A stretch of 64,000 nucleotides of DNA from an uncultured Bacilli bacterium (GTDB lineage Bacteria; Bacillota_I; Bacilli_A; RFN20; CAG-826). The translations under genes were made by a program, and so were the position numbers. The notes beneath the pieces are model-generated. The model was given only the letters and a program-made list of their open reading frames with translations, was not told where the DNA came from and made no database searches. Positions within the stretch are counted from its first letter, which is position 1, and each line of letters begins with the position of its first letter. Below are positions 24,355-38,772 of the stretch, piece after piece. The stretch lies in the NCBI GenBank assembly GCA_944350425.1, contig CALVOX010000001.1, positions 41,155 through 105,154 of the forward strand, read 5' to 3'.

Positions 24355-25686
24355 TTAATTATTATATTTTTTATTTTCAATATCTGTAGCTTTAAATAAG
24401 AATAATGGTTCTTTTACTCTAATGCTATGATTTTTAATTAAAACTATTTTAGAAGTAAAGTAATCAACATAAGCTCCATCATTTAGTTTTTCATCTCTAA
24501 TTAAAACACCATTATTTGACATAGAAGTTGAAAGATTAAACAAACCATAAGAAGTAGAACCATCTTTATAATGATTAATAATACCTAAATTTCTTCCTTT
24601 TGAAGTTAAAACTTCACTAATTGTTAGATCTAAATTAACCTTATTTTTTTTAAATTCAATTAATTTTTTAATATAGTTAAACCATTCAATATCAATACTT
24701 AAATCTAATTGGTCTTTTTCAAATAAATCAAGATGATGATCAGCTTTAGTTTCTAGACCGTTATAAATAAACATAGGTCCTTTCATAAATACTGGAAAAG
24801 CTGCCAAATTCTTAATTAAAGTTTTATTTTTACTATATTCACATAATCTTCTTTGATCGTGGTTTTCTAATCCTCTAATACGTAAATTATTAGAAGGATT
24901 ATAAGATTCTTCATAATTAAGTAAAACTTTATACATATCTAAATATCTAGATTCTTTAGTGTCTAAATAAGTTCTAAGTTCATTAAAATTATTATATGGA
25001 TAAAGTAAATCAAAACCTAACATATAAAGTTCAGCATCACTTAAAGCGTTAAAGCCAATAGATCTAACATAACTTATGAAACCTGAATCAACCGATTCAC
25101 AAAGTAAAATAGTAGAAGGATATTTTGCATCCAACATCTCTTTTAACTTTTTATAAAAAGAAGAATAAATTAATGAACCGACATCAAATCTAAATCCATC
25201 TACTCCTAAAGAACAATAATATTCGATTACACCTACTAAATAGTTAATTAAATCTTCGTTATTAAAATCTAAATCATAAACATCTGACCAATCGCCAGCT
25301 TTATTTGCAAAATTACCATTTTTATCATGATACATCCGTTCTGGATGTTCATTCATTATTACAGAATCTCTAGAAGTATGATTAAAGACAATATCAATCA
25401 TTATCTTCATGTTTTTTTCATGAGTTTTATTAATTAAAGATTTAAAATCATCAATAGATCCATATTCTGGATTAACTTTATAATAATCTTTAATAGAATA
25501 AGGTGAACCTAATGAACCTTTTCTTCCAACTCTTCCGATTTCATTAATTGGGAGAAGATATAATATATCGCTACCTAACTCTTTAATATAATCTAATTTA
25601 GTTTCTAAAGCATTAAATGTTCCTTCAAGAGTATAGTTTCTTGGAAATACTTGATAAATAATGTTTGTTTTTAATTCAGTTTTCAT
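24355..25686 (-). CDS. Cytoplasmic GH13 alpha-glucosidase/amylase-family enzyme
   Basis: GVDGFRFDV (nucleophile region), LLCES (acid/base), LENHDQ. No signal peptide. Start set at the second ATG (MKTELKTNIIYQVFPRNYT) after aggtaaagg. Confidence 0.8.
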   Translation of the reverse strand: MKTELKTNIIYQVFPRNYTLEGTFNALETKLDYIKELGSDILYLLPINEIGRVGRKGSLGSPYSIKDYYKVNPEYGSIDDFKSLINKTHEKNMKIMIDIVFNHTSRDSVIMNEHPERMYHDKNGNFANKAGDWSDVYDLDFNNEDLINYLVGVIEYYCSLGVDGFRFDVGSLIYSSFYKKLKEMLDAKYPSTILLCESVDSGFISYVRSIGFNALSDAELYMLGFDLLYPYNNFNELRTYLDTKESRYLDMYKVLLNYEESYNPSNNLRIRGLENHDQRRLCEYSKNKTLIKNLAAFPVFMKGPMFIYNGLETKADHHLDLFEKDQLDLSIDIEWFNYIKKLIEFKKNKVNLDLTISEVLTSKGRNLGIINHYKDGSTSYGLFNLSTSMSNNGVLIRDEKLNDGAYVDYFTSKIVLIKNHSIRVKEPLFLFKATDIENKKYNN

Positions 25687-25762
25687 AAATAAATTTACCT
25701 TTACCTTTAAATTTAAGTCAAAAGTCATTATTATATTTATAAGAATTTTATAAAAATATAAA

Positions 25763-25847: not shown

Positions 25848-27521
25848 ATGAATAAAGAAAAAGTAAATAAGAAAATAATTGAAGATTTATATTCAAATGA
25901 AAATATCAATGTAACTTATAATAACGGTTATAATTTTAACATTAATAATTTCACAAATTTTTATAATATATTAAATTTAGAAGAATATAAAAAACATAAG
26001 CAAAGTGGCATTTTACTTCATATTAGTCAATTGCCTTCAAAATATGGAATAGGTAGTTTAGGTAAAGAAGCCTTTAAATTTATTGATTTTTTAAAAGAAA
26101 CAGGTTTTTCTTATTGGGAAATACTTCCAATTTATGATGTTGGATATTTAAATTCCCCATTCCAAGTAATTACCTCAAAAGGATTAAATCATTATTTAAT
26201 TGATATAGAATCTTTAATTGAAGAGAATTTATTAACTTCAAGAGATTTAACTAATATTGATTTTGGAAGTAATCCTAAAAGAGTAGATTTCAACAAACTA
26301 TTTTTATATAAAGACGAAGTTCTTAAAAAAGCTTTTAAAAGATTTGATACCTCAAATCAAGAATTTATTAATTTTATTAATACTACAAATCTATCTTCTT
26401 ATTGTTTATATAAAGTAATTAAAGAAAGAAACGGTTCAAAAGCATGGTTTGATTTTGCTTTAGAAGATCGTTATTTTGATGAAGAAGTTAAATCTCATTA
26501 TATTAGACATTACCAAAAAGAAATCGAATATCAATTCTTTCTTCAATTTATCTTTTTGAAGCAATGGAATAAATTACATGATTATGCAAAAAAACAAAAT
26601 ATTGAAATAATCGGCGATCTACCTCATTTTTTAGGATATGATTCTGATGAAATGTATTTTAACCCAGAACTTTTTACGGTTGATAAAAGATACCAAGTAA
26701 CTTATGTTGCTGGTTATCCTAGTGATAATTTTAAACCTCAAGGTCAAAAATGGGGTTATCCTTTATATGATTGGGATTATATGAAATTAAATCACTACAA
26801 ATGGTGGAGAAGTAGAATTTTAGATGCTTTAAGTTTATTTGATAAAGTAAAACTAAACCATTTTAGAGGATTTTATGAAATATATGCGATTCCTTTTAGA
26901 AGTAAAAGTGCTAAAAGAGGCACTTGGATTAAAGGGCCTGGTTTAGATTTTATTTCTTCTATCTCTGATTTATCTCCTAGATTAATTGCTAGTGCTTTAG
27001 GTAATGATGATATTAAAATAACTAAATTTGTTAAAGATTCGAAGTTAGAAGTAACTAAAACTTTAATACCATCATTATTTGATAATATCGAACAAAGAAC
27101 ATATCCATCAATGGTAGATGAAAATACATATTATTATTTAGGTAATCACGATAATACAACTATTAAAACTAAATTAGATGCTTTATCAATTTTAGAAAAA
27201 GAAGAATTAGTAAATCTAATTAATAGTGAATGTGAAAAACTTAATGTTCCTTTACTAAATAGTCCATATTCTAACTTTGATATATCTTTAAAACTTAATG
27301 AACTTATCTATGCTTCAAAGGCAAATCATGTATCTCTTTTATTATCAAACGTTTTATATTTAGGTAAAGAAGCTAGACTTAATACACCAGGAACTTTAGA
27401 TACTTTAAACTGGACTTACCGTTATTTACAACATGATATTTTTAACGACAATATAAAAAAATATTTATTTAATTTAAATAAGACTTACAAAAGATTAAAT
27501 TATAAAAATTTCAAAGAATAG
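25848..27521 (+). CDS. GH77 4-alpha-glucanotransferase paralog lacking catalytic carboxylates (predicted inactive)
   Basis: Full-length alignment to the downstream MalQ2. VKLNHFRGF replaces RIDHFRGF (D to N), and LIASALGNDD replaces IVAEDLGMMDD (E to S, D to A). The HD motif is kept. It carries an extra ~50-aa N-rich N-terminus. Confidence 0.75.
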   Translation: MNKEKVNKKIIEDLYSNENINVTYNNGYNFNINNFTNFYNILNLEEYKKHKQSGILLHISQLPSKYGIGSLGKEAFKFIDFLKETGFSYWEILPIYDVGYLNSPFQVITSKGLNHYLIDIESLIEENLLTSRDLTNIDFGSNPKRVDFNKLFLYKDEVLKKAFKRFDTSNQEFINFINTTNLSSYCLYKVIKERNGSKAWFDFALEDRYFDEEVKSHYIRHYQKEIEYQFFLQFIFLKQWNKLHDYAKKQNIEIIGDLPHFLGYDSDEMYFNPELFTVDKRYQVTYVAGYPSDNFKPQGQKWGYPLYDWDYMKLNHYKWWRSRILDALSLFDKVKLNHFRGFYEIYAIPFRSKSAKRGTWIKGPGLDFISSISDLSPRLIASALGNDDIKITKFVKDSKLEVTKTLIPSLFDNIEQRTYPSMVDENTYYYLGNHDNTTIKTKLDALSILEKEELVNLINSECEKLNVPLLNSPYSNFDISLKLNELIYASKANHVSLLLSNVLYLGKEARLNTPGTLDTLNWTYRYLQHDIFNDNIKKYLFNLNKTYKRLNYKNFKE

Positions 27522-27705
27522 TTTTCACTTTTTATTTTATCGTGATTATATCAAGCATATATAAATTATGTAAATTAAGTTAAATAACACGATAACCATC
27601 GATATAATTTTAATTTTATGCAATTTTTTAATATATTTCTATAAAATTTCGTTTTAAATTTACACTTTTATCAAAATAATACGATTTTGGCTTACTTTTA
27701 TATAC

Positions 27706-27734
27706 TTGACTTAACAATAATTTGAAAATATAAT
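27706..27734 (+). promoter_or_regulatory. Sigma70-type promoter for malQ2-malEFG-amy-malK
   Basis: TTGACT, 17-nt spacer, TATAAT. Confidence 0.6.
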
Positions 27735-27747
27735 GAAAGCGCTTACA
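27734..27747 (+). promoter_or_regulatory. Catabolite-responsive element (cre) candidate
   Basis: TGAAAGCGCTTACA matches the cre consensus TGWNANCGNTNWCA at every constrained position. It lies immediately downstream of the -10. Confidence 0.5.
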
Positions 27748-27779
27748 CAAAGTATAAGCTAATTTTTTAAGGATTATAT

Positions 27780-29303
27780 ATGAAATTAAGAGAGAGTGGA
27801 ATTTTATTAAATATCTCATCATTACCTTCAAAATATGGAATTGGTAATCTTGGTAAAGAAGCATATGAATTTATTGATTTCTTAAGTAAGAGTAAATGCA
27901 ATATTTGGCAAATTTTGCCCCTAAACGTTACTTCCTATGGTGATTCACCATATCAATCTCCATCTAATTATGGTTTAAATTATTACTATATTGATTTAGA
28001 TACATTAATAGATAAAGGTTTATTAAAAGAAGAAGAAATTAAAAATATCGACTTTGGAAGTGATCCTAAAAAAGTTGATTATGGTAAATTATTCAATAAT
28101 CGTCTTAAAGTATTAAAACTTGCATTTTCAAGATTTGATACAAGAAAAGAAGATTTTAAAGATTTCATCATAAAAAATCCTAAGTTTAAAGATTTTGCTT
28201 TATTTATGACAATAAAAGAGAAACAAAATCTTAAACCTTGGTATGAGTGGGATGTTAAGTATCGTAAATATAACACTTTACTTGAAGAAGAAGTAGTAAA
28301 AGAAAACAAAGAAACAATGCTCTTCTACATCTGGACTCAATACGAATTCTTAGATGAATATACTAAATTAAAAGAATATGCTAAATCTAAAAAGATTAAG
28401 ATTATGGGCGACTTACCTATTTATGTAGCGTTTGACTCATTAGAGGTATGGAAATTCCCAAGTCTCTTCCAATTAGATGAAAATAGATTCCCAACTGCAG
28501 TAGCAGGTTGCCCACCAGATTGTTTCTCAGTTGATGGTCAATTATGGGGAAATCCATTATATAATTGGCCATATCATAAAGAAACTGGTTATAAATGGTG
28601 GAATGAAAGAATTGCTAATTGTCTAGATTTATTTGATTATCTTAGAATTGATCACTTTAGAGGATTTAGTGGATATTATTCAATTCCATTTAAAGATAAA
28701 ACTGCTAAAAATGGAAAATGGATAAAAGGTCCAGGAATTGATTTGTTTAAAGATAAATTAAATTACCCTATCGTAGCCGAAGATCTTGGCATGATGGATG
28801 ATGATTTCTATAAGTTCTTTGATAAATGTGGTTATCCAGGTATGAAGATAGTAACACAATGTTTCGATGATGATGATCCGACTAACATTTGGAGACCATC
28901 GAATTATCCATACAACTATTTCTCATATACTGCAACTCATGATTCTCCAACTACTAGACAATTTATTGATGAAAGAACTCCAGAGCAAAAAGAATTAATG
29001 CTCGAGATATTAGAAGATGAATGTAAAAAATTTAGGATTCCATTTATTAAAAGTTTAAGTAACGAACAACTTACTTTAAAAATATGTGAACTTAATTTTG
29101 CTTCTCAATCTAGAGCAGCAATCGTTCCTCTTCAAGACTTATTTGCAATCGGTAAAGAAGGAAGAATGAACTTCCCTTCAACATTATCTACCGACAACTG
29201 GTCTTTCAGAATAACTAAAGAAGCTTTTGAAGCTAAAAAGAAGGAATTAAGTGAAATTCTACTTAGGTGGAATGATAATTATCAAAGAGGCATAGATAAC
29301 TAA
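27780..29303 (+). CDS. malQ: 4-alpha-glucanotransferase (amylomaltase, GH77)
   Basis: LRIDHFRGF, PIVAEDLG and YTATHDS catalytic motifs are all intact. RBS aagga. Confidence 0.9.
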   Translation: MKLRESGILLNISSLPSKYGIGNLGKEAYEFIDFLSKSKCNIWQILPLNVTSYGDSPYQSPSNYGLNYYYIDLDTLIDKGLLKEEEIKNIDFGSDPKKVDYGKLFNNRLKVLKLAFSRFDTRKEDFKDFIIKNPKFKDFALFMTIKEKQNLKPWYEWDVKYRKYNTLLEEEVVKENKETMLFYIWTQYEFLDEYTKLKEYAKSKKIKIMGDLPIYVAFDSLEVWKFPSLFQLDENRFPTAVAGCPPDCFSVDGQLWGNPLYNWPYHKETGYKWWNERIANCLDLFDYLRIDHFRGFSGYYSIPFKDKTAKNGKWIKGPGIDLFKDKLNYPIVAEDLGMMDDDFYKFFDKCGYPGMKIVTQCFDDDDPTNIWRPSNYPYNYFSYTATHDSPTTRQFIDERTPEQKELMLEILEDECKKFRIPFIKSLSNEQLTLKICELNFASQSRAAIVPLQDLFAIGKEGRMNFPSTLSTDNWSFRITKEAFEAKKKELSEILLRWNDNYQRGIDN

Positions 29304-29421: not shown

Positions 29422-30708
29422 ATGAAAAAATTTAAATTCTTAGCCATCTTAGCAGCTGGCGCAATGGTTCTTGGGGGAGGCTTAGCATCTTGTACTCCAA
29501 GTGATAATCCAAATCCTAACCCAAATCCTAACCCAAATCCTAACCCAGAACCAGAAGGTAAAACAATTGATCTTGTTCTTTCAGGTCCAGGCGATGAAGC
29601 CGAACTTGACATGGAATTAATCGAGGACTTTAAAGAGTATCGTAAATCAATTGGTGACCCAAATACCTATAATATCGAAAGAGTTAACCACGGTGCAGAT
29701 AAAGTCGACTCTGAAGTTACTGACTGGACAACCGGACCAGATGTCTATGCATATGCTTCAGATAAAACACAAGGCTTATTCCAAAAAGGCGCTTTAGGTG
29801 TTTTAAGAGGCGATTACGAAACATTCGTTTTAGAAAATAACAGCCAAACTGGTATTGATGCTGCAACATTTAACGAAGATTTATATGGTTTCCCATATAC
29901 TGGTGATAATACATACTACTTAATGTATGATAAATCAGTATTCACAGAAGAAGATGTTCAATCAGTTGAAGGCATTTTGGCTAAATGTGCAGAAACAGGT
30001 ACAACATTTGCTTATAAATTACAAGAAGGTTTCTATGGGCAAGGTGCTATGTTCACTTTTGGTGCTGATTATAATTTAACATTCACTGAAGATGGTCAAA
30101 TCTCCACAATTGAGGCTGACTTTAATGGTGAAGCAGGTGTAAAAGCAGCTAAAGCTATTTATAGTATTGCAACAGATTCAAATTGGATTGATGAATATAT
30201 TGTAGCTGGAACTGATAACACAAAGATTGCTGTAAACGGAACTTGGAGTATTAGTGATGCTAAAGCTTTATTAGGCGATAACTATGGTTGTGCTCCTATG
30301 CCAACTGTTACAGTAGACGGTGATACAAAACCTTTAGGTAACTTTATTGGCGCTAAATTATTTGGCGTTAACCCTCAAAGATCTGGAACAGATCAAGATA
30401 GATTAACCGCTGCTTATAACTTAGCAATGTATCTTTCTGATGCTGATGCACAAGAAAAGAGATTCGACTCAAGAGAAACAGCTCCAAGTAACTTAACAGT
30501 TGCTGCATTAGACAAAGTTACTTCTAACGGAAACGTCCAAACATTAGTTAAACAAAATGAATGGGGTCATGCTCAAACTGTAGTTCCAGGTGAAGCTTGG
30601 AATGCTCCAGGTGTTTTACTTGGTGGAATTAAAGACGGAACAGTTACTTTAGATAATATCGAAGAAGCTTGTGAAGTTTATAATAACAGTATCATTAACT
30701 CTAAATAA
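29422..30708 (+). CDS. malE: Maltodextrin ABC transporter substrate-binding lipoprotein
   Basis: Lipobox LASC after MKKFKFLAILAAGAMVLGGG, then an (NP)n linker. Family-1 SBP core resembling MalE/MdxE. Confidence 0.85.
   Translation: MKKFKFLAILAAGAMVLGGGLASCTPSDNPNPNPNPNPNPNPEPEGKTIDLVLSGPGDEAELDMELIEDFKEYRKSIGDPNTYNIERVNHGADKVDSEVTDWTTGPDVYAYASDKTQGLFQKGALGVLRGDYETFVLENNSQTGIDAATFNEDLYGFPYTGDNTYYLMYDKSVFTEEDVQSVEGILAKCAETGTTFAYKLQEGFYGQGAMFTFGADYNLTFTEDGQISTIEADFNGEAGVKAAKAIYSIATDSNWIDEYIVAGTDNTKIAVNGTWSISDAKALLGDNYGCAPMPTVTVDGDTKPLGNFIGAKLFGVNPQRSGTDQDRLTAAYNLAMYLSDADAQEKRFDSRETAPSNLTVAALDKVTSNGNVQTLVKQNEWGHAQTVVPGEAWNAPGVLLGGIKDGTVTLDNIEEACEVYNNSIINSK
29506..29556 (+). repeat. In-frame tandem repeat encoding (NP)7-EPE linker
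   Basis: aatcctaaccca repeated 3 times, plus flanking aatcca / gaaccagaa units. Confidence 0.7.
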
Positions 30709-30723
30709 TTTATATTACTATAA

Positions 30724-30751
30724 CAAGGCAACTTTTTAGTTGCCTTGTTTC
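30724..30751 (+). terminator. Intercistronic hairpin (partial terminator/attenuator) between malE and malF
   Basis: caaggcaact-tttt-agttgccttg followed by tttcttg. Confidence 0.5.
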
Positions 30752-30772
30752 TTGTTCAAGAAAGGAGCGATT

Positions 30773-32314
30773 ATGTCAAATTTAGAATATTATTCTTTAT
30801 CTAGACCAAAAAGATTCTTTTATAAACTCGGTTCCTTCTTTGTAAACATTCCTCTTGGAATTGGAAGATTTTTTAAAAAACTTCCTAATAAATTAGTTAA
30901 TTTCTTTAAAAAATTTTTCACTCCCCTTGTTAATATTTGGTCATGGTTTTCTAAAGGTGACTTTTTGACCAGGCTTTCATTTGTTGTTATGGGATCGGGT
31001 CAAATCGCCAGACATCAAATAATAAGAGGCGTTTTGAACCTTTTATACGAAATCGTCGCAATCATATTTATAATTTTGGTCGGAGTACCAAGTTTTACTA
31101 AATTGCCATCATTTGGCTATATTTCATCTATACAATATGAAACTAACACACCACCATTTGTTGGCTATATGTATCAAGATGATAGTTTTAAAATTTTGCT
31201 TTATTCAGTTGTAAGCTTAATCGTAATTTTAATACTTGCCTTCCTTTGGTACACAAATATAAGAGATGCATATGAATTGCAAAGAACAAAGGAAATTGGA
31301 AGAAAAACTTCTGATCTACAAACAGTCAAAGGTTTAGTTGGCAAAGATTATCATAAGGTAATGCTTTCTATTCCTACATTAGGCATAGCTATTTTTACAG
31401 TAATTCCTTTAATTTTCATGGTGTTGGTTGCATTTACTAATTTCAATTCAAATCATATGAATCCTAAAGAATTATTTGACTGGGTAGGACTAGGAAATTT
31501 TTCACAATTATTAGGTTTGACAGGAACTAATAATGGAAATCAATTTGCAATGGTTTTCTTACAAATTCTCATTTGGACACTTATTTGGGCTTTCTTTGCA
31601 ACATTCACTAACTATTTTTTAGGAATGATTGTTGCTATCATGATCAATAAAAAAGGCATTAAGCTTAAAAAAATGTGGAGAACAATTTTAATTACAACGA
31701 TTGCAGTTCCACAATTCGTATCTTTACTTTTAATGTCAAAAATGCTTAACACAGATACAGGTGTCGTTAATGCGATTTTAAAAAATGCTGGTTTAATAAC
31801 AGAAAATATTAGATTCTTAACCGATGGTTTACTTGTAAAAGTTACAATCATCCTTGTTAACATGTGGATTGGTATTCCTTATACAATGCTCATGTGCACC
31901 GGTATTCTTATGAATATTCCTGATGATTTGTACGAATCTGCAAAGATCGATGGTGCAAGCCCTTATAAAATGTATATGAAAATTACACTTCCATATATGT
32001 TGTTTGTTACTACGCCATACTTAATTTCTCAATTCGTCGGTAATATCAACAACTTCAATGTTATTTATCTTCTTTCAAGCGGTGGTCCTATCTTCTCAAG
32101 TGTTAATGGTGAAATCATCACTGCACAAGTTTTCGGAGCTGGACAATCAGACTTGCTTATTACATGGTTATATAAAATGTCCATGGGCGAAGTATTTAAA
32201 GACTATGGCGCAGCATCAGTTATCGGAATTGTTGTCTTCGTTATCGTTGCTTTCTTCTCGCTTATTTTCTATGGAAGAAGTAATTCAGTTAAAAATGAGG
32301 AGGATTTCCAATAA
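30773..32314 (+). CDS. malF: Maltodextrin ABC transporter permease (MalF-like)
   Basis: Start at ATG 30773 (MSNLEYY…) after AAAGGAG. EAA-loop region …IDGASPYKMYMKITLP…. Confidence 0.85.
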   Translation: MSNLEYYSLSRPKRFFYKLGSFFVNIPLGIGRFFKKLPNKLVNFFKKFFTPLVNIWSWFSKGDFLTRLSFVVMGSGQIARHQIIRGVLNLLYEIVAIIFIILVGVPSFTKLPSFGYISSIQYETNTPPFVGYMYQDDSFKILLYSVVSLIVILILAFLWYTNIRDAYELQRTKEIGRKTSDLQTVKGLVGKDYHKVMLSIPTLGIAIFTVIPLIFMVLVAFTNFNSNHMNPKELFDWVGLGNFSQLLGLTGTNNGNQFAMVFLQILIWTLIWAFFATFTNYFLGMIVAIMINKKGIKLKKMWRTILITTIAVPQFVSLLLMSKMLNTDTGVVNAILKNAGLITENIRFLTDGLLVKVTIILVNMWIGIPYTMLMCTGILMNIPDDLYESAKIDGASPYKMYMKITLPYMLFVTTPYLISQFVGNINNFNVIYLLSSGGPIFSSVNGEIITAQVFGAGQSDLLITWLYKMSMGEVFKDYGAASVIGIVVFVIVAFFSLIFYGRSNSVKNEEDFQ

Positions 32315-33177
32315 TGTCTGCTAAAGTCGAACGTTATCACAGTAAGAAATTTAAGGAAATTTCTTCAAAAACACTTATTTACATCCTTTTAGTTATCATT
32401 TCGATAATATGGTTAATACCATTTGTTTATTTGGTATTTCAATCATTTGCTCAAAGTTATTCACCTTCAAACTTTATTCCAGCTGCTTGGACATTTGATA
32501 ACTATATTAATTTATTTACGGATATATCTTATCCATTTGGTAGATGGTATTTAAATACACTACTTATTGCTATTATTACCGCAATACTACAAACAGTTTT
32601 TACTTTAATGACTGCTTATGCATTCTCAAGATTAAGATTTAGATCAAGACAAGCATATATGAAATTTATTCTTGTAATCGGTATGTTCCCATCTTTCTTA
32701 GGAATGATTGTTACATATTTCTTATTACAAATGATAGGTTTATCAGCTTCAATATTTGGTCTCATCGTTATTTATGTTGCAGGTTCTGGAATGGGATACT
32801 ACGTTGCTAAAGGTTTCTTTGACACAATTCCAAAGTCATTAGATGAAGCTGCAATGATTGATGGTGCAAACAAAAATACAGTATTCTGGAAAGTTATTTT
32901 ACCTTTAGCAAAACCAATCGTTGTTTACACAGTTCTTATGAGTTTCACTGCTCCATGGGGTGACTATATGATGGCATCATATATTGCGCAAGGAAAACAA
33001 GAACTATTCAATGTTGCTGTTGGTTTGCAACAAATGATGACGAAAGGTAATGATATTAAATACTTCCCTCAATTCTGCGCTGGAGGTGTATTTGTCTCTA
33101 TTGGAATTATGGCTTTATTCTTCTGGTTACAAAAATATTATGTTGAAGGTGTAACAGGAGGAGCTGTTAAGGGTTAA
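32314..33177 (+). CDS. malG: Maltodextrin ABC transporter permease (MalG-like)
   Basis: 6 TM helices; EAA motif LDEAAMIDGANKNTVFWKVILPL. TAATG overlap with malF. Confidence 0.9.
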   Translation: MSAKVERYHSKKFKEISSKTLIYILLVIISIIWLIPFVYLVFQSFAQSYSPSNFIPAAWTFDNYINLFTDISYPFGRWYLNTLLIAIITAILQTVFTLMTAYAFSRLRFRSRQAYMKFILVIGMFPSFLGMIVTYFLLQMIGLSASIFGLIVIYVAGSGMGYYVAKGFFDTIPKSLDEAAMIDGANKNTVFWKVILPLAKPIVVYTVLMSFTAPWGDYMMASYIAQGKQELFNVAVGLQQMMTKGNDIKYFPQFCAGGVFVSIGIMALFFWLQKYYVEGVTGGAVKG

Positions 33178-33181
33178 AAAA

Positions 33182-34801
33182 ATGAAAAAAAGTAAATTAT
33201 TAATTATAACCTCACTTTTGTCTCTATTATCAATTGCATCTTGTACACCAGCAAATCCTTATGATGAAACATATGGCTACAGAATAGAAGAAAACATTGA
33301 TGATGTAACGCCTATTGATGATAACTATCGCAATTATTATGAAATCTTTGTAAGATCTTTCGCAGATTCTGATGGAGATGGAATAGGCGACTTAAATGGT
33401 ATAATAGAAAAATTAGATTATATAGAAGATTTGGAATATACAGGAATATGGTTAATGCCAATAAATCCTTCGCAATCTTATCATAAATATGATGTAGATA
33501 ATTATTATGAAATTGATCCGGACTATGGAACAATTGACGATTTAAAAAATCTAGTATCAATAGCACATGATAAAGGGATTAATGTTATTCTAGATCTTGT
33601 ACTTAACCATTCGTCTTTATACACTGAAGAATTTAAACTAGCAAGCGAAGCTTACAATAAATATATAAAAGGCGAAACATTAAACGAAGATGAACTTAGA
33701 TATTACGATTATTATTCATTTTTCGAAGGACAGGATGATCCTGATGCAAAGGGAAAAACACTATATAAACACCCAATTTATAACTTTTATTACGAAGGTA
33801 ATTTCTCTAGCTCAATGCCTGAATTGAATTTAGATTCACAATATGTAAAAGAAGATATTGAATCAATTGTTAAATACTACATAGATATAGGAATTGACGG
33901 TTTTAGACTCGACGCAGTTTTATATTATTTTATAAATAACACATCAAAAAATGTTGAATTTCTTAATTGGTTTAATTCTTATGTAAAATCGCTTGACGAA
34001 AACGCTTATATCGTAGGCGAAGCTTGGACTAGTGATCAAGTGATAAAACAATACTACGAATCGGGAATAGATTCTTTCTTCTATTTCGATGGATCGACAT
34101 CAAATCCTAATGGATTTTATCTAAACTCAACAAATTTAGATGGCAAACTTGCAAATTCATATTATGAAGGCTTACTAGACCTTATAGATACTTCATCAAA
34201 TGGTATTCCAGCCCCATTTCTAGATAATCATGATATGTCTAGATATGTTAGGGTTAATTCAATTGAAAAAACAAAATTCTATTATGGATTACTTTCAATG
34301 TCTAATGGAACAACATTTACATATTATGGTGATGAAGTTGGAATGGGCGGAACTATTCCACCAGATCAAAACGTAAGAACTTCAATAAGATGGGGTGAAG
34401 ATGATGAGAAATACGATACAGTTCAATTAACAGGTATAACAGCAGAAGTTTATCCTTACGGAACTGTAAAAGAAAATCTGGAAAACTCTAATTCTATCCT
34501 TAATTATTATAAAAAAGCTAATTATTTGAGAAATAAATTTAAATCAATAGCTAGAGGTGAAATATCTTTAGCAGAATTCGATAAAGATAGAGGGCTATTA
34601 ATAATTACTAAGTCTTACCTTGACGAAGAAATAAATATCGCTATTAATTTTAAAGAAAGAGATAACATCATTCTTACATCTAGCGATATAAGTGATAAAG
34701 AAATTGTCGGACAATTAATTGTCGATAACTCTAAATATATCGGTGAATTAAACGATGGAACTATAATTCTTCCACCTTATTCAATAGCGATATTCAAATA
34801 A
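33182..34801 (+). CDS. Lipoprotein GH13 alpha-amylase (surface-anchored)
   Basis: Lipobox IASC. GIDGFRLDAV, VGEAWT and LDNHDMSR catalytic regions. Confidence 0.85.
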   Translation: MKKSKLLIITSLLSLLSIASCTPANPYDETYGYRIEENIDDVTPIDDNYRNYYEIFVRSFADSDGDGIGDLNGIIEKLDYIEDLEYTGIWLMPINPSQSYHKYDVDNYYEIDPDYGTIDDLKNLVSIAHDKGINVILDLVLNHSSLYTEEFKLASEAYNKYIKGETLNEDELRYYDYYSFFEGQDDPDAKGKTLYKHPIYNFYYEGNFSSSMPELNLDSQYVKEDIESIVKYYIDIGIDGFRLDAVLYYFINNTSKNVEFLNWFNSYVKSLDENAYIVGEAWTSDQVIKQYYESGIDSFFYFDGSTSNPNGFYLNSTNLDGKLANSYYEGLLDLIDTSSNGIPAPFLDNHDMSRYVRVNSIEKTKFYYGLLSMSNGTTFTYYGDEVGMGGTIPPDQNVRTSIRWGEDDEKYDTVQLTGITAEVYPYGTVKENLENSNSILNYYKKANYLRNKFKSIARGEISLAEFDKDRGLLIITKSYLDEEINIAINFKERDNIILTSSDISDKEIVGQLIVDNSKYIGELNDGTIILPPYSIAIFK

Positions 34802-34823: not shown

Positions 34824-37373
34824 ATGGCAAACATTAAATTAGACCACATCTATAAAGTTTATCCTAATGGTGTTAAAGCTGTCTCTGATTTTACAATGGA
34901 CATTAAAGATAAAGAATTCATTGTTTTCGTTGGGCCTTCGGGATGTGGCAAATCAACAACCTTAAGAATGATTGCTGGTCTAGAAGATATTAGCGCTGGC
35001 GAACTTTATATTGACGATAGAATTGTTAATGATGTTGAACCAAAAGATAGAGATATTGCAATGGTTTTCCAAAACTATGCACTTTATCCACACATGACTG
35101 TTTATGAAAATATGGCATTCGGTTTACAACTTAGACACGTTCCAACTGAAGAAATTCATGAAAGAGTCTTATGGGCTGCAAATATCTTGGGTTTAACAGA
35201 TTATTTAGATAGAAAACCTAGAGCAATGTCTGGTGGGCAAAGACAAAGAGTCGCTTTAGGTAGAGCTATCTTAAGAAATCCTAAAGTCATGTTACTTGAT
35301 GAACCACTTTCAAACCTTGATGCTAAACTTAGAGCACAAATGAGAAGTGAAATTGCAAAACTTCATCAAGATTTACAAACTACATTTATTTACGTCACTC
35401 ACGACCAAGTAGAAGCTATGACTCTTGGAACAAGAGTAGTTGTTATGAAACTTGGTGAAATTCAACAAATTGACTCACCAAAGAATTTATATGATTATCC
35501 ACAAAACAAGTTCGTTGCTGGTTTTATTGGAACACCTCAAATGAATTTCTTCCAAGCTACATTGCTTAGAAAAGGTGACCAAGTAGAAATTAATTTTGAA
35601 TGGTCTGATAATAAACTCATGGTTGATGCTAATGAATTAATTAAGGTCCAACCTTATTATCTTGACGGAAAGCATAAAGTCTGGTTTGGTATTAGATGTG
35701 AAGATATTTCATTGCTTGGACCTGGAGATCAAGTTAATCCAGAAGATAACTTCAATGTCAAAATTTCCCATTTCGAAGAACTTGGTAATGAAACATTAAT
35801 TTATGGCGATATTAATATGAATGGCGATGGCTTTAAAGAAACATCAACAAGAATTATTATTAAAGCTTTAAATTCAAATGGTTTAAACATTGGAGACGTT
35901 GTAAAGGCTAAACTTAACTTAGAAAAAGCACACTTCTTTGATATTAATAGTGAAGTATCAATCGTTCCGCGCATACCTACATTAAACGTTATATCTTGTA
36001 AAATTAACGGACATGAATTAACTTTTGATGGAAATACATTAACTTTACCAAAAGTAGTTGAAGTTAAAGAAGGAGATGGACAACTTTATTTACCAATTAA
36101 CGCTTTAAGCATTGATCAAAACGGAAAAGTTAATGCTAAAGTAATTAAAATTGAGCAAGTCGAAGATAAAAAACTTGCTTACTTAAAATTGAATGAAAGA
36201 GTCTTATTCTTGCTCGTTGGAGATGATGTTAAAGTTGGAGATGAAGTTAAACTTAATATTGACATAACTCAAATTACTATCAAAGATGGAGAAGAAGTAT
36301 TAGTTTCAACTTTGAAGAAATATAATGAAATTTCCTCAACATTTGTAAACTTTGTTACAGCAAATACTAATGAAAAGAACAAATACAATCCAATATTAAA
36401 TTCAAGAATCGAAGAAGTTAACAAGTCTTTTGATGAAAAAATTAAAGAAGTTAATGCAAAATATGATGCTTTAATTAAAGAAAATTCTTCAAAAGATTTA
36501 GCAGCAATTAAAGAAGTTAATAATAAGAAGATTGCCGAATTAACTCAAGAAACAAATGCTAAACTTAAAGAACTTGATGCAAATTATAAAAAGAACATTG
36601 CTGAAGTTAAAAAAGAACATAAAGTTAATAAGAAACAAGTCGTTTTAAAAGTTAAAGAAGAGCAAGAAAGAATTAAACGTGAAGAAAATGAATCTTACAA
36701 GAAATTCTTAAAAGTTAACAAAGATAAAGATGTTTATCATAAACGTAAAACCGAACATCAAGATTTTAAAGAAAATTTCCCTAAGGAAAGAGAAAATCTT
36801 ATCAATAAGGCTATAGATGGCGAAGCTTTAAACTTTGAAACTGCTCTTAACGAAATTAAAGCTCCTTATAAGAGAGACAAAAAAATACTTAAAAACAACT
36901 ATAAAACAACTGTTAAAGCACTTAAAGACGAGTACAACATCATTGAGGTATTGAATAAAGAAAGAAATGAGGAACTTTCTCGACTCACAAAACAAAAGAA
37001 AGTAGATTTAGCAAAAGCTAAACAAATCTTCTTCCTTAAAATTAACGGTCACTTATATCAATCGCCGGACACAATTTCTAATAAGATGATTCAAGGTTTA
37101 GGAACTAAAGTATTTGTTAAAGACTTCATCATTGAAATTCCTAATGATAAGATTCGTGTTAGCGATGAAGGATTAAAGGCTACTGTTGAATCTTTCTTAG
37201 ACTATGGTGATAAAAAATTTGTTATTTGTAATGTTAAAGAAGAAGACGGCAGCGAACACGAATTCTATGTCTTAAATGATAAAGAAATTGCCAAAGGAAC
37301 AGAAATTCATTTAACATTTGACTTAATTGATACCCACATTACTGAAAAATCAATGAATCTTAGAATTTATTAA
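34824..37373 (+). CDS. malK: MalK/MsmK-type ABC ATPase with ~480-aa C-terminal extension
   Basis: Walker A GPSGCGKST, signature LSGGQRQRV, Walker B LLDEPLSNLD, and the canonical TOBE-like regulatory domain to about aa 370. Then extra OB-like segments and a K/E-rich coiled-coil (…KEVNAKYDALIKEN…KVKEEQERIKREEN…). Confidence 0.85.
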   Translation: MANIKLDHIYKVYPNGVKAVSDFTMDIKDKEFIVFVGPSGCGKSTTLRMIAGLEDISAGELYIDDRIVNDVEPKDRDIAMVFQNYALYPHMTVYENMAFGLQLRHVPTEEIHERVLWAANILGLTDYLDRKPRAMSGGQRQRVALGRAILRNPKVMLLDEPLSNLDAKLRAQMRSEIAKLHQDLQTTFIYVTHDQVEAMTLGTRVVVMKLGEIQQIDSPKNLYDYPQNKFVAGFIGTPQMNFFQATLLRKGDQVEINFEWSDNKLMVDANELIKVQPYYLDGKHKVWFGIRCEDISLLGPGDQVNPEDNFNVKISHFEELGNETLIYGDINMNGDGFKETSTRIIIKALNSNGLNIGDVVKAKLNLEKAHFFDINSEVSIVPRIPTLNVISCKINGHELTFDGNTLTLPKVVEVKEGDGQLYLPINALSIDQNGKVNAKVIKIEQVEDKKLAYLKLNERVLFLLVGDDVKVGDEVKLNIDITQITIKDGEEVLVSTLKKYNEISSTFVNFVTANTNEKNKYNPILNSRIEEVNKSFDEKIKEVNAKYDALIKENSSKDLAAIKEVNNKKIAELTQETNAKLKELDANYKKNIAEVKKEHKVNKKQVVLKVKEEQERIKREENESYKKFLKVNKDKDVYHKRKTEHQDFKENFPKERENLINKAIDGEALNFETALNEIKAPYKRDKKILKNNYKTTVKALKDEYNIIEVLNKERNEELSRLTKQKKVDLAKAKQIFFLKINGHLYQSPDTISNKMIQGLGTKVFVKDFIIEIPNDKIRVSDEGLKATVESFLDYGDKKFVICNVKEEDGSEHEFYVLNDKEIAKGTEIHLTFDLIDTHITEKSMNLRIY

Positions 37374-37394: not shown

Positions 37395-37952
37395 ATGAAA
37401 CACAAAATAAAAATGTTTGCCCTTGGTTCATTATTAGGAATTCTAACTTCTTGTGGAGCACCTAAAGGCTACTTAAGTTATGATGAAATTTCTTCTAAAG
37501 TTTCTTCGTTCTCTGATTTAAGTTATACGACCTATTCATATGAAGGTTACTTTAATTGCAGAGGATTAGAAGGAGACTTTGATGCCCAAGGTAATAACGT
37601 TCAGTTTAGTAACGATAAAACATCTTACTATTTAAGTCTTCCTTTAAAATTAGAATCGGAAAATCTTGAAACGCAATATCAAACAATAGTCAATAAATTT
37701 GTTACATCAGATTCTATTGATACTGTTTATTGCTATGATACAAGCGATGATGGATTGGTTTTTAGGACTTTCGGCATTAATAAAAGATTAATTATTTCTA
37801 GATTCGGAATGGAAATAAGTGCTAAATGGAATGCCTATATCGCGTATGATTCAAATGGCTATCTAATTAGCGAAAAATTTGAAACAATTAATGTTGGCTC
37901 TGATCCTGATAGTCAAACAGTATATGGATATTCTGAATATTCATATAATTAA
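37395..37952 (+). CDS. Lipoprotein of unknown function
   Basis: Lipobox ILTSC; AGGAGG RBS 8 nt upstream. Confidence 0.6.
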   Translation: MKHKIKMFALGSLLGILTSCGAPKGYLSYDEISSKVSSFSDLSYTTYSYEGYFNCRGLEGDFDAQGNNVQFSNDKTSYYLSLPLKLESENLETQYQTIVNKFVTSDSIDTVYCYDTSDDGLVFRTFGINKRLIISRFGMEISAKWNAYIAYDSNGYLISEKFETINVGSDPDSQTVYGYSEYSYN

Positions 37953-38037: not shown

Positions 38038-38772
38038 ATGATACTTAAAAGAAAAATATCGACAGCTATATTTTCATTACTTACTATATTTTCATTAGCT
38101 TCATGTACTTCTAAAATTCCTGATGGTCCTGTTAAAGATTATATAAATGGTTTCTCCATTACTTTAGCTGAAAAAAATATTCACTCTGCATCCTTAATAT
38201 ATGAAAATATCGAATATGATGCTGATGGTAAAGAAAAAGGTAAAGCCTATTGCTACTTTGAATTTGACAATAATGACTCTGATTATCCATATTTATATTT
38301 ATACCGTACTTATGAAGGCAGTTTAATTCAAGATGACGGAATAAAAGAAAAAGAAGTACTTCAATATATTTCTAATGAAAATGAAGAAGTAGGTTATGAT
38401 AAAACCGATGGAGTAATTAAAGAACTCGATGTTAGTAAGACAACAATTAATGATTCAATAACTTCATTCTTTTATAAAGATAAAACTTATGATTATTACC
38501 GTGGCGGTCTTTATTATGGTGATTTAGTTAAGATAAGCGCTGAAAAATGGCATATTAACTTTTCGATTAATGAAGATGGATTATTACGTTATCATTTACT
38601 AAATGATATGACTTATGAAGGCGTAATTTTTAATACTGATTATACTTTAACAAAAGAAGGTATGTTAAAAGACTATTATTATGATGGGCAAATAATCGAA
38701 ACTAAAGAAAAAGTAGTTAATACCATAAATGTTACATATAATGTTTCTTTAAATAAAAAAGAAACACTATGA
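38038..38772 (+). CDS. Lipoprotein of unknown function
   Basis: Lipobox LASC after MILKRKISTAIFSLLTIFS. No obvious RBS. Confidence 0.55.
   Translation: MILKRKISTAIFSLLTIFSLASCTSKIPDGPVKDYINGFSITLAEKNIHSASLIYENIEYDADGKEKGKAYCYFEFDNNDSDYPYLYLYRTYEGSLIQDDGIKEKEVLQYISNENEEVGYDKTDGVIKELDVSKTTINDSITSFFYKDKTYDYYRGGLYYGDLVKISAEKWHINFSINEDGLLRYHLLNDMTYEGVIFNTDYTLTKEGMLKDYYYDGQIIETKEKVVNTINVTYNVSLNKKETL

What the first reader, a model, noticed from the sequence alone, without database searches (positions are those of the whole stretch)
35940..37373. MalK-type ATPase carries a ~480-aa C-terminal extension with extra OB/TOBE-like segments and a coiled-coil
The canonical MalK (NBD plus regulatory TOBE domain) ends near aa 370 (…KAHFFDINSEV). 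The protein continues for about 480 aa. It has a second TOBE-like block, a long K/E-rich heptad region and a third beta-rich block. Long-form sugar ABC ATPases occur in Mollicutes, but their extension has no defined function. It could mediate regulation, oligomerisation or interaction with the inactive MalQ1.
Basis: partly seen in the sequence, partly recalled or inferred. Interest (0 to 1): 0.5.

Follow-up and report, generated by a model that had tools for sequence, protein, structure and literature searches.

The report
Sugar-transporter ATPase with tripled regulatory domain
The energy-supplying subunit of a starch-sugar importer in an uncultured, low-G+C gut bacterium carries two extra, diverged copies of its own regulatory domain plus a long helical arm; this is a real, conserved but uncharacterised variant of a well-known protein, and its role is still inferred.

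Summary
Window 34824-37373 (+) is one 849-aa ORF. Residues 1-377 are a complete MsmX/UgpC/MalK-type ABC ATPase with intact catalytic motifs, and residues 378-849 are a real extension. The exact protein is on 19 contigs. A relative with 86% identity has no indels, and dN/dS of the extension is about 0.10, so it is not a fusion artefact.

The extension has three parts:
- RD2 (about 378-509), a diverged duplicate of the MalK regulatory OB/TOBE domain.
- A helical hairpin of about 220 residues between them (AlphaFold pLDDT 96). Its distal tip carries a conserved motif. Heptad periodicity is weak.

Pfam does not detect any of the extension.

About 94 relatives exist, all from metagenomes. An ~850-aa form occurs in Mollicutes-like Bacilli. 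A ~630-aa form without the hairpin occurs in Clostridia. Most loci examined show the gene order GH77-SBP-MalF-MalG-GH13-ATPase.

The function is inferred: a regulatory or docking platform on a maltodextrin importer. Two ATPase-dead relatives keep the extension.

Verdict: a new variant of a known kind, of moderate interest.

The parts
34824..37373 (+). Whole gene: long-form MsmX/MalK-type ABC importer ATPase, 849 aa plus a TAA stop
   Evidence: ORF list. The exact protein is on 19 contigs. Nearly all listed members of its 28-member 90% cluster are 849 aa. The L001 orthologue is 86% identical with no indels.
34824..35528 (+). Nucleotide-binding domain (aa 1-235). Walker A GPSGCGKST, Q-loop, signature MSGGQ, Walker B LLDEP and H-loop THDQ are all intact.
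   Evidence: Pfam ABC_tran 1.3e-31. Motifs. Foldseek to B. subtilis MsmX 6yir: 54% identity, TMt 0.91. dN/dS 0.018.
35529..35954 (+). RD1: the canonical MalK regulatory domain (aa 236-377), ending ...KAHFFDINSE
   Evidence: Pfam OB_MalK 236-295 and TOBE_2 289-331. NCBIfam UgpC covers 1-377. dN/dS 0.091.
35955..36350 (+). RD2: first extra, diverged copy of the MalK regulatory domain (aa 378-509), including a terminal strand at 500-509
   Evidence: hhalign against RD1: probability 93.8%, E 1.8e-7, over almost the full domain. A PDB profile search hits only regulatory domains of sugar ABC ATPases at E <= 1e-3 (2d62 7.3e-5, 2it1 2e-4). The AF2 model is all-beta with pLDDT above 90. dN/dS 0.095.
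36351..37019 (+). Helical insertion (aa 510-732). Helices 522-555 and 559-631 run outward; helices 635-704 and 706-732 run back, giving a long antiparallel hairpin. K/E-rich.
36684..36791 (+). Conserved motif around the hairpin tip (aa 621-656): ...SYKKFLKVNKDKDVYHKRKTEHQDFKENFPKER
   Evidence: This is the most conserved stretch of the helical insertion. The NKD..R..E..FKE pattern is shared by 14 sequences, including the divergent P0035. It is absent from the P0011/P0024 subgroup.
37020..37370 (+). RD3: second extra copy of the regulatory domain (aa 733-849), with the LDYG turn and the family-wide C-terminal ...D/N-I/L-R/K-L/I-Y motif
   Evidence: hhalign against RD2: probability 98%, E 2.9e-13. 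Against RD1: 69%, E 4.4e-5. PDB profile hits are weak but are all sugar-ATPase regulatory domains: T. litoralis MalK 1g29 5.6e-3 and 2d62 8.4e-3. It has the lowest dN/dS of the extension, 0.054. C-terminal motif.
29422..34801 (+). Upstream genes: lipoprotein solute-binding protein (29422-30708), MalF-like permease (30740-32314), MalG-like permease (32314-33177) and GH13 alpha-amylase lipoprotein (33182-34801)
   Evidence: Pfam SBP_bac_8, BPD_transp_1 twice, and Alpha-amylase. The same gene order precedes the long ATPase in L007, L008, L009 and L010.
25848..29303 (+). Two GH77 4-alpha-glucanotransferase genes upstream. The first (25848-27521) lacks catalytic residues. The second (27780-29303) is intact.
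   Evidence: Pfam Glyco_hydro_77 6e-109 and 3e-150. KLNHFRG and ASALG in the first against RIDHFRG and AEDLG in the second.

Best explanation
The gene encodes the ATPase subunit of a maltodextrin-type ABC importer (SBP, MalF-like, MalG-like and this ATPase).

Anatomy. Residues 1-377 are a complete, catalytically competent MsmX/UgpC/MalK-type subunit. The extension arose by duplicating the MalK regulatory (OB/TOBE) domain twice, giving RD1-RD2-RD3. In the low-G+C Mollicutes-like lineage, an antiparallel helical hairpin of about 220 residues was later inserted in the short linker between RD2 and RD3. This anatomy is shown here, on sequence profiles and predicted structure.

Mechanism, which is inferred. 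RD2, the hairpin and RD3 form one rigid cytoplasmic module hanging below the RD1 dimer. The module acts as an additional regulatory and docking platform. The extra TOBE-type domains, and especially the conserved hairpin tip, bind a cytoplasmic partner: a protein, or a metabolite of alpha-glucan metabolism. That binding either couples or restrains the NBD opening and closing cycle, or tethers the partner to the transporter. Known parallels are EIIAGlc and MalT on E. coli MalK, and molybdate on the ModC TOBE domains. The identity of the partner is unknown.
For: Real and under selection:
- The exact protein is on 19 contigs, and its 90% cluster is nearly all 849 aa.
- The L001 orthologue is 86% identical with no indels.
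- dN/dS is 0.095 for RD2, 0.117 for the helical part and 0.054 for RD3, against 0.091 for RD1.

Canonical ATPase:
- NCBIfam UgpC 459 bits, above the 432 cut-off.
- Catalytic motifs intact.
- Foldseek gives 54-55% identity and TMt 0.91-0.95 to MsmX and Clo1313_2554.

Duplicated regulatory domains:
- hhalign RD2-RD1 E 1.8e-7, RD3-RD1 E 4.4e-5 and RD2-RD3 E 2.9e-13. The helical region gave nothing against RD1, which serves as a negative control.
- In the PDB profile searches, every hit at E below 0.01 is the regulatory domain of a sugar ABC ATPase.
- The extension-only AF2 model has pLDDT 95.8 and pTM 0.75.

The hairpin is an insertion:
- The ~630-aa relatives join RD2 to RD3 by about 20-35 residues at the same point.

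Link to alpha-glucan uptake:
- The order GH77-SBP-MalF-MalG-GH13-ATPase is conserved in both length classes.

A role beyond ATP hydrolysis:
- Two relatives with degenerate ATPase motifs (P0009, P0035) keep RD2, the hairpin and RD3. Both keep the C-terminal motif, and at least P0035 keeps the tip motif.
- The tip is the best-conserved part of the hairpin.

Precedents for regulation through C-terminal domains of ABC importer ATPases:
- MetN C2, ModC and MalK-EIIAGlc (review PMC10710835).
Against: - No partner, ligand or activity was tested, so the mechanism rests on analogy.
- Model coordinates could not be inspected. The packing of RD2 against RD3, the hairpin length and any pocket are inferred from secondary structure and pTM only.
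- Only monomers were predicted.
- RD3 against RD1 is only 69% probability in hhalign. Pfam models do not reach threshold on either extra domain.
- The P0011/P0024 subgroup has a hairpin without the tip motif, so the tip cannot be the universal functional site.
- No PTS, HPr or transcription regulator gene lies near the operon in the window.
Confidence: 0.5

Rival explanations
1. Small-molecule trans-inhibition sensor. RD2 and RD3 bind an intracellular product such as maltose, maltodextrin, glucose or glucose-1-phosphate. This locks the NBD dimer open, as the TOBE domains of ModC do with molybdate. The hairpin is only a spacer or dimerisation element.
Against: No ligand-binding residues were identified or compared. 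Canonical MalK regulatory domains are not known to bind sugars (my own knowledge). The hairpin tip motif is conserved and the ATPase-dead relatives keep the extension. Neither is expected for a pure transport brake.
Confidence: 0.2
2. A purely architectural role. The extra domains and the hairpin strengthen or extend the ATPase dimer, or form higher-order assemblies. For example, two hairpins could pair into a four-helix bundle. There would be no signalling role.
Against: Ordinary MsmX/MalK proteins dimerise without this module. The sequence-specific conservation of the tip and of the RD3 C-terminus suggests a defined interface with something else. No multimer prediction could be run.
Confidence: 0.15
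3. An autonomous module with a function unrelated to transport, such as a scaffold or tether in these Mollicutes-like bacteria. It would merely be carried on the ATPase.
For: P0035 (946 aa) has lost its signature motif, Walker B glutamate, Q-loop and H-loop and lies far from any permease gene. P0009 has lost its Walker A glycine, Q-loop, signature and H-loop. Both keep RD2, the hairpin and RD3.
Against: Most members have perfect ATPase motifs and sit in transporter operons. The degenerate forms are rare (clusters of 1-2 members). They could be regulatory pseudo-subunits that still pair with an active ATPase.
Confidence: 0.1
4. Artefact: two adjacent genes fused by an assembly or sequencing error, or a decaying non-functional tail.
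For: None was found. No Pfam model covers residues 378-849, and the word-index protein search found nothing.
Against: The same 849-aa frame appears in 19 contigs from many assemblies. A relative at 86% identity has no indels, and dN/dS is about 0.1. Ninety-four homologues include many full-length ones at about 30% identity. The AF2 model is very confident.
Confidence: 0.01

Closest known systems
MsmX / MalK / UgpC-type ATPases of carbohydrate (CUT1) ABC importers, e.g. B. subtilis MsmX (6yir), C. thermocellum Clo1313_2554 (7x0q) and E. coli MalK
   Same: Residues 1-377 match over the full length. Identity to MsmX and Clo1313_2554 is 54-55%, with TMt 0.91-0.95. All catalytic motifs are present. 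There is one canonical OB/TOBE regulatory domain, and the operon contains an SBP and MalF/MalG-like permeases.
   Different: The known proteins end after one regulatory domain, at about 360-375 aa. This one continues with two more diverged copies of that domain and a 220-residue helical hairpin. It scores below the E. coli MalK equivalog cut-off (390.7 against 568).
ModC of the M. acetivorans ModBC transporter, and the ModE/ModG tandem TOBE (DiMop) domains
   Different: There is no sequence-level relationship beyond the fold (7-16% identity). The oxyanion-binding role is not expected here, and these proteins have no helical insertion.
Proteins with an alpha-helical hairpin emerging from beta domains, such as periplasmic adaptor proteins (EmrA 4tko) and EnvC of FtsEX-EnvC
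   Different: These are periplasmic and unrelated in sequence and function. The rmsd values are very high (11-22 A), so the resemblance is generic.
SMC / Rad50-type ABC ATPases with coiled-coil arms
   Different: In SMC and Rad50 the arm is inserted inside the nucleotide-binding domain, between its N and C halves. Here it lies between two regulatory domains, far downstream of an uninterrupted NBD. The protein is not a member of that family.

Membership tests
MsmX/UgpC/MalK-type ABC importer ATPase | Walker A, Q-loop, LSGGQ signature, Walker B D-E and H-loop His all present | tested here: met
   GPSGCGKST, MVFQNYA, MSGGQRQ, LLDEP and YVTHDQ. Pfam ABC_tran 1.3e-31.
MsmX/UgpC/MalK-type ABC importer ATPase | C-terminal OB/TOBE regulatory domain directly after the NBD | tested here: met
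   Pfam OB_MalK reaches 32.1 bits against a cut-off of 27. TOBE_2 reaches 21 bits, exactly at its cut-off of 21. The structural match covers the whole of MsmX.
MsmX/UgpC/MalK-type ABC importer ATPase | Curated family score cut-off reached | tested here: met
   The NCBIfam UgpC subfamily NF008653 scores 459 bits against a cut-off of 432. The E. coli-type MalK equivalog NF008233 is not reached (390.7 against 568).
MsmX/UgpC/MalK-type ABC importer ATPase | Encoded with, or serving, binding-protein-dependent sugar permeases | tested here: met
   SBP, two BPD_transp_1 permeases and a GH13 enzyme lie directly upstream. The same order is seen in L007-L010.
MsmX/UgpC/MalK-type ABC importer ATPase | ATP hydrolysis that drives maltodextrin uptake | not testable with these tools
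   This needs biochemistry.
MalK regulatory / TOBE-type domain (for blocks 2 and 3) | Pfam OB_MalK, TOBE_2 or CysA_C_terminal reached at the gathering threshold | tested here: not met
   For the window protein only TOBE_2 at E 0.093 on block 3. Across 21 family members there are only sporadic sub-threshold hits.
MalK regulatory / TOBE-type domain (for blocks 2 and 3) | Profile-level homology to a bona fide MalK regulatory domain | tested here: met
   hhalign E 1.8e-7 for block 2 and 4.4e-5 for block 3 against RD1, and 2.9e-13 between the two blocks. PDB profile hits are 2d62, 2it1 and 1g29.
MalK regulatory / TOBE-type domain (for blocks 2 and 3) | The fold of the domain | tested here: met
MalK regulatory / TOBE-type domain (for blocks 2 and 3) | Binding of a regulator or ligand | not testable with these tools
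   No partner is known.
Canonical two-stranded coiled coil | Heptad (3.5-residue) hydrophobic periodicity | tested here: inconclusive
   There is no 3.5 peak in the Fourier analysis. The a/d hydrophobic fraction is 0.40-0.60 against 0.25-0.32 elsewhere. AF2 nevertheless predicts long paired helices with pLDDT above 92.
SMC/Rad50-type ABC ATPase | Coiled-coil arm inserted within the NBD, between the Walker A and Walker B/signature halves | tested here: not met
   The NBD is contiguous (aa 1-235). The helical arm lies at 510-732, after two regulatory domains.

The most novel reading that the evidence does not exclude
RD2, the hairpin and RD3 form an autonomous interaction module. The conserved hairpin tip would recruit a specific cytoplasmic partner to the importer and so form a transport-metabolism complex. 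Candidate partners are an alpha-glucan enzyme or the catalytically dead GH77 encoded upstream. In ATPase-dead paralogues the same module would act independently of transport. This would be a new way of coupling an ABC importer to downstream metabolism in genome-reduced gut bacteria.
Probability: 0.15. Interest if true: 0.75.

Novelty: new variant of a known kind. Interest (0 to 1): 0.5.

Why it matters
MalK is the textbook case of an ABC importer ATPase that is regulated through its C-terminal domain. A conserved natural variant with three such domains and a long helical arm raises a direct question: what extra input or partner does a maltodextrin importer need in these organisms?

The variant is found in two groups of uncultured bacteria recovered from metagenomes. 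In most loci examined it lies next to starch and maltodextrin genes. The family has no Pfam or NCBIfam model covering the extension, and its members are annotated simply as UgpC. Defining the RD2/RD3 domains and the hairpin would improve annotation.

It also gives a compact, confidently modelled target for testing how additional TOBE-type domains modulate ABC transporters. The ATPase-dead relatives that keep the module hint at a function separable from transport.

Tried and rejected
- **Word-index protein searches.** The extension alone found nothing. A block-3 profile found only 5 fragments. This index is too insensitive for the family. The exhaustive phmmer search was what revealed it.
- **Genome scan.** The GTDB genome scan returned a single relative.
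- **Pfam and NCBIfam.** Pfam on the whole protein, on blocks 2 and 3 of 21 members each, and on the helical insert gave no hit at threshold. NCBIfam on the whole protein matched only residues 1-377.
- **PDB sequence search of the helical insert.** Nothing.
- **Pairwise BLAST between blocks.** Only a marginal block 2 to block 3 match, E 0.003. Profiles were needed.
- **Heptad test.** No clear periodicity.
- **Literature.** Searches for long MalK or MsmX forms, MPN134/UgpC, and TOBE plus coiled coil found no description of this architecture.
- **AlphaFold database fold search.** The library was unavailable.
- **Fusion artefact.** Rejected.
- **SMC/Rad50-like reading.** Rejected because the arm is not inside the NBD.
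- **Link to long Mycoplasma ATPases (MG187/MPN134, from my own memory).** Could not be tested. No hit of that length appeared.
Full report
**1. Observation**

Window 34824..37373 (+) is a single ORF of 849 aa ending in TAA. NCBIfam UgpC (NF008653) matches residues 1-377 at 459 bits, above its cut-off of 432. The E. coli MalK equivalog aligns to 1-373 but stays below its cut-off. Pfam places ABC_tran at 21-162, OB_MalK at 236-295 and TOBE_2 at 289-331, and finds nothing beyond residue 377.

The finding's start, 35940, is residue 373, inside KAHFFDINSEV. That is the usual '...hlFD' end of MsmX/MalK proteins. The extension is 472 residues. The window has about 27-32% G+C in this region. From composition I estimate that a 472-codon open frame would arise by chance with a probability near 1e-18.

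**2. Is it real?**

- The identical protein is encoded on 19 contigs read from independent assemblies. Nearly all listed members of its 28-member 90%-identity cluster are 849 aa.
- A MAG of an uncultured Bacilli bacterium (L001, CALVXK010000001.1) has an 849-aa orthologue that is 86% identical and aligns without a single indel.
- Nei-Gojobori dN/dS against that orthologue is 0.018 for the NBD and 0.091 for RD1. It is 0.095 for block 2, 0.117 for the helical block and 0.054 for block 3.

The extension is therefore under purifying selection as strong as that on the canonical regulatory domain. A fusion artefact or a decaying tail is excluded.

**3. The family**

The word-index protein search found nothing. 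An exhaustive phmmer search of the extension against 1.84 billion representatives found 94 proteins. Most of the shorter hits lack ATPase motifs, and I take them to be gene fragments. The full-length members fall into two classes:

- About 848-871 aa, with the same layout as the window protein (P0001, P0002, P0003, P0005, P0007, P0009, P0011, P0024).
- About 619-652 aa (P0019, P0025, P0030, P0041, P0049, P0063, P0067, P0074, P0076, P0087). In these, block 2 is joined to block 3 by only about 20-35 residues.

Nearly all members end in D/N-I/L-R/K-L/I-Y/V/I.

Where sources give names, the long form comes from MAGs labelled Candidatus Onthovivens, Anaeroplasmataceae, Firmicutes or Bacillota. At least one short-form cluster comes from a Clostridia bacterium MAG. 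The annotations are 'UgpC', 'multiple sugar transport system ATP-binding protein' or 'hypothetical'. Loci with the long form have 28-35% G+C. The two short-form organisms sampled (loci L002-L005 and L010) have 47%.

**4. What the extension is made of**

*Blocks 2 and 3 are copies of the regulatory domain.* I cut sub-alignments from a 22-sequence family alignment and compared profiles with hhalign:

| Comparison | Probability | E-value | Extent |
|---|---|---|---|
| Block 2 (378-500) vs RD1 (236-377) | 93.8% | 1.8e-7 | positions 3-140 of 142 |
| Block 3 (733-849) vs RD1 | 69% | 4.4e-5 | 102 columns |
| Block 2 vs block 3 | 98% | 2.9e-13 | 91 columns |
| Helical block vs RD1 (negative control) | 0.07% | 0.68 | 19 columns |

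Profiles of block 2 and block 3 were also searched against all PDB sequences. Their best hits are all regulatory domains of sugar ABC ATPases, although only the block 2 hits are clearly significant:

- Block 2 hit 2d62 (7.3e-5) and 2it1 residues 237-348 (2e-4).
- Block 3 hit T. litoralis MalK 1g29 (5.6e-3) and 2d62 (8.4e-3).

The aligned motifs correspond one to one:

| Element | RD1 | RD2 | RD3 |
|---|---|---|---|
| Central strand | WFGIRCEDISL | LYLPINALSI | IIEIPNDKIRV |
| Hairpin turn | HFEELGNETLIY | IEQVEDKKLAY | FLDYGDKKFVI |
| Domain end | KAHFFDINSEVSI | TQITIKDGEEVLV | THITEKSMNLRI |

Single-sequence Pfam scans of 21 members of each block give only sporadic sub-threshold hits to OB_MalK, TOBE_2 and CysA_C_terminal. 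That explains why the domains go unannotated.

*Predicted structure.* AlphaFold2 with a 42-sequence family alignment gave a full-length model with mean pLDDT 90.1 and pTM 0.74. The extension-only model has pLDDT 95.8 and pTM 0.75. The secondary structure is:

- Beta strands at 387-509 (RD2).
- Helices at 510-516, 522-555, 559-631, 635-704 and 706-732.
- Strands plus one helix (749-764) at 736-847 (RD3).

*Fold comparisons.*

- Foldseek of the full model places residues 1-377 on B. subtilis MsmX (54% identity, TMt 0.91) and on C. thermocellum Clo1313_2554 (55% identity, TMt 0.95).
- Foldseek on the same model agrees: MsmX at 1.4e-5.

*Shape of the helical part.* The two arms (about 522-631 and 635-732) are of similar length. 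Their breaks, at 556-558 and 705, lie roughly opposite each other. I therefore read the helical part as an antiparallel hairpin that could reach about 150 A if straight. This is an inference, because model coordinates could not be inspected.

The hydrophobic heptad signal is weak. The region is K/E-rich.

*Insertion point and tip.* Comparison with the short form shows that the hairpin is inserted between the strand 500-509, which follows RD2, and the first strand of RD3 at 736-740.

Within the hairpin, the best-conserved stretch surrounds the turn at 632-634. It reads ...Y625..F..NKD(K/P)(D/E)...R..E(H/Y)..FKE(N/S)(F/L)P and is shared by 14 sequences. A subgroup (P0011, P0024, P0020, P0056) has a hairpin without this motif.

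**5. Genomic context**

In the window the gene is the last of a co-directional series:

- GH77 at 25848-27521.
- GH77 at 27780-29303.
- Lipoprotein SBP at 29422-30708.
- MalF-like permease at 30740-32314.
- MalG-like permease at 32314-33177.
- GH13 alpha-amylase lipoprotein at 33182-34801.
- The ATPase.

Two lipoproteins of unknown family follow downstream.

The order GH77-SBP-MalF-MalG-GH13-ATPase recurs in three other long-form loci (L007, L008, L009) and in a short-form locus (L010). One abundant short-form protein, P0152, is listed in 417 blocks of the collection. It is not next to permease genes but still directly follows a GH13 gene. The family is thus tied to alpha-glucan and maltodextrin uptake. 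No regulator or PTS gene lies near the operon in the window.

**6. Mechanism**

*Shown.* The protein is an intact MsmX-type ATPase encoded in a maltodextrin ABC importer operon. It carries two additional regulatory-type domains and an inserted helical hairpin, and all of these are conserved.

*Inferred.* I read the module as an added cytoplasmic regulatory and docking platform. There are three precedents for C-terminal domains of ABC importer ATPases controlling the cycle:

- EIIAGlc binding to MalK.
- Molybdate binding between the ModC C-terminal domains.
- Methionine binding between the MetN C2 domains (review PMC10710835).

E. coli MalK also binds MalT through its regulatory domain (established knowledge). 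Duplicated domains of the same fold, together with a conserved distal hairpin tip, are most simply read as new binding surfaces.

Two relatives with degenerate ATPase motifs still keep RD2, the hairpin, RD3 and the C-terminal motif:

- P0009 has GDKNSSKST, LSPLI and an H-loop Gln.
- P0035 has lost its signature, Walker B Glu, Q-loop and H-loop.

This argues that the module does something that does not need ATP hydrolysis by its own chain.

*Rivals.* My split is:

| Reading | Confidence |
|---|---|
| Regulatory or docking platform, partner unknown | about 0.5 |
| Small-molecule trans-inhibition | 0.2 |
| Purely architectural, including dimerisation | 0.15 |
| Transport-independent scaffold | 0.1 |
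| Artefact | 0.01 |

The anatomy itself I hold at about 0.9.

**7. Comparison with known systems, and novelty**

The protein is a member of the MsmX/UgpC/MalK ATPase family. All sequence-defining features were tested and met, although the E. coli MalK equivalog threshold is not reached. It is not an SMC/Rad50-type ATPase, because the helical arm lies outside an uninterrupted NBD.

I found no library model and no paper that describes a MalK-type ATPase with three regulatory domains or with a helical hairpin.

I class it as a new variant of a known kind. Interest is moderate (0.5). The architecture is clear, conserved and unexpected for a textbook protein, but the function is still inferred.

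Noticed in passing
window 25848-27521 (+): The first of two tandem GH77 (4-alpha-glucanotransferase) genes lacks the catalytic nucleophile Asp and the acid/base Glu. It reads KLNHFRG and ASALG where the second copy (27780-29303) reads RIDHFRG and AEDLG. It still scores 6e-109 against the Pfam family, so it looks like a conserved pseudo-enzyme. It also has an N-terminal extension of about 47 residues.
   Followed up: partly
L011:8001-10556 (P0009) and L013:8001-10841 (P0035): Two long-form relatives have degenerate ATPase motifs (Q-loop, signature and H-loop in both; the Walker A glycine in P0009; the Walker B glutamate in P0035) but keep RD2, the helical hairpin and RD3. P0009 follows MalF/MalG-like permease genes, with no SBP, GH13 or GH77 gene called within the 8 kb shown. 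P0035 is an orphan between a decarboxylase gene and a ribosome hibernation factor gene.
   Followed up: partly
window 37395-37952 and 38038-38772 (+): Two predicted lipoproteins (185 and 244 aa, with lipobox Cys) lie directly downstream of the ATPase and have no Pfam match. ORFs of similar size (187 and 255 aa) lie at the same position in L001. Genes of 214 and 248 aa without a Pfam hit lie there in L008. In L008 and L007, pullulanase-like GH13 genes follow. These may be surface alpha-glucan-binding proteins.
   Followed up: no
window 29422-30708 (+): The maltodextrin-type solute-binding lipoprotein has a (PN)9-PEPEG low-complexity linker right after its lipobox Cys. This presumably acts as a tether or spacer.
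   Followed up: no
L002-L005: 8001-9875 (P0152): A 624-aa short-form ATPase without the hairpin is very common: it is listed in 417 blocks of the collection. In a 47% G+C organism it is encoded apart from any permease genes, directly after a cytoplasmic GH13 gene. This resembles orphan, shared MsmX-type ATPases.
   Followed up: partly
P0092 (738 aa): One short-form relative carries an additional K/G/D-rich insertion of about 120 residues inside the helical subdomain of the NBD, between the Q-loop region and the signature motif.
   Followed up: no
window 24355-25728 (-): A GH13 enzyme without a signal peptide is encoded divergently just upstream of the operon. It is likely the cytoplasmic maltodextrin-processing enzyme of the locus.
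   Followed up: no
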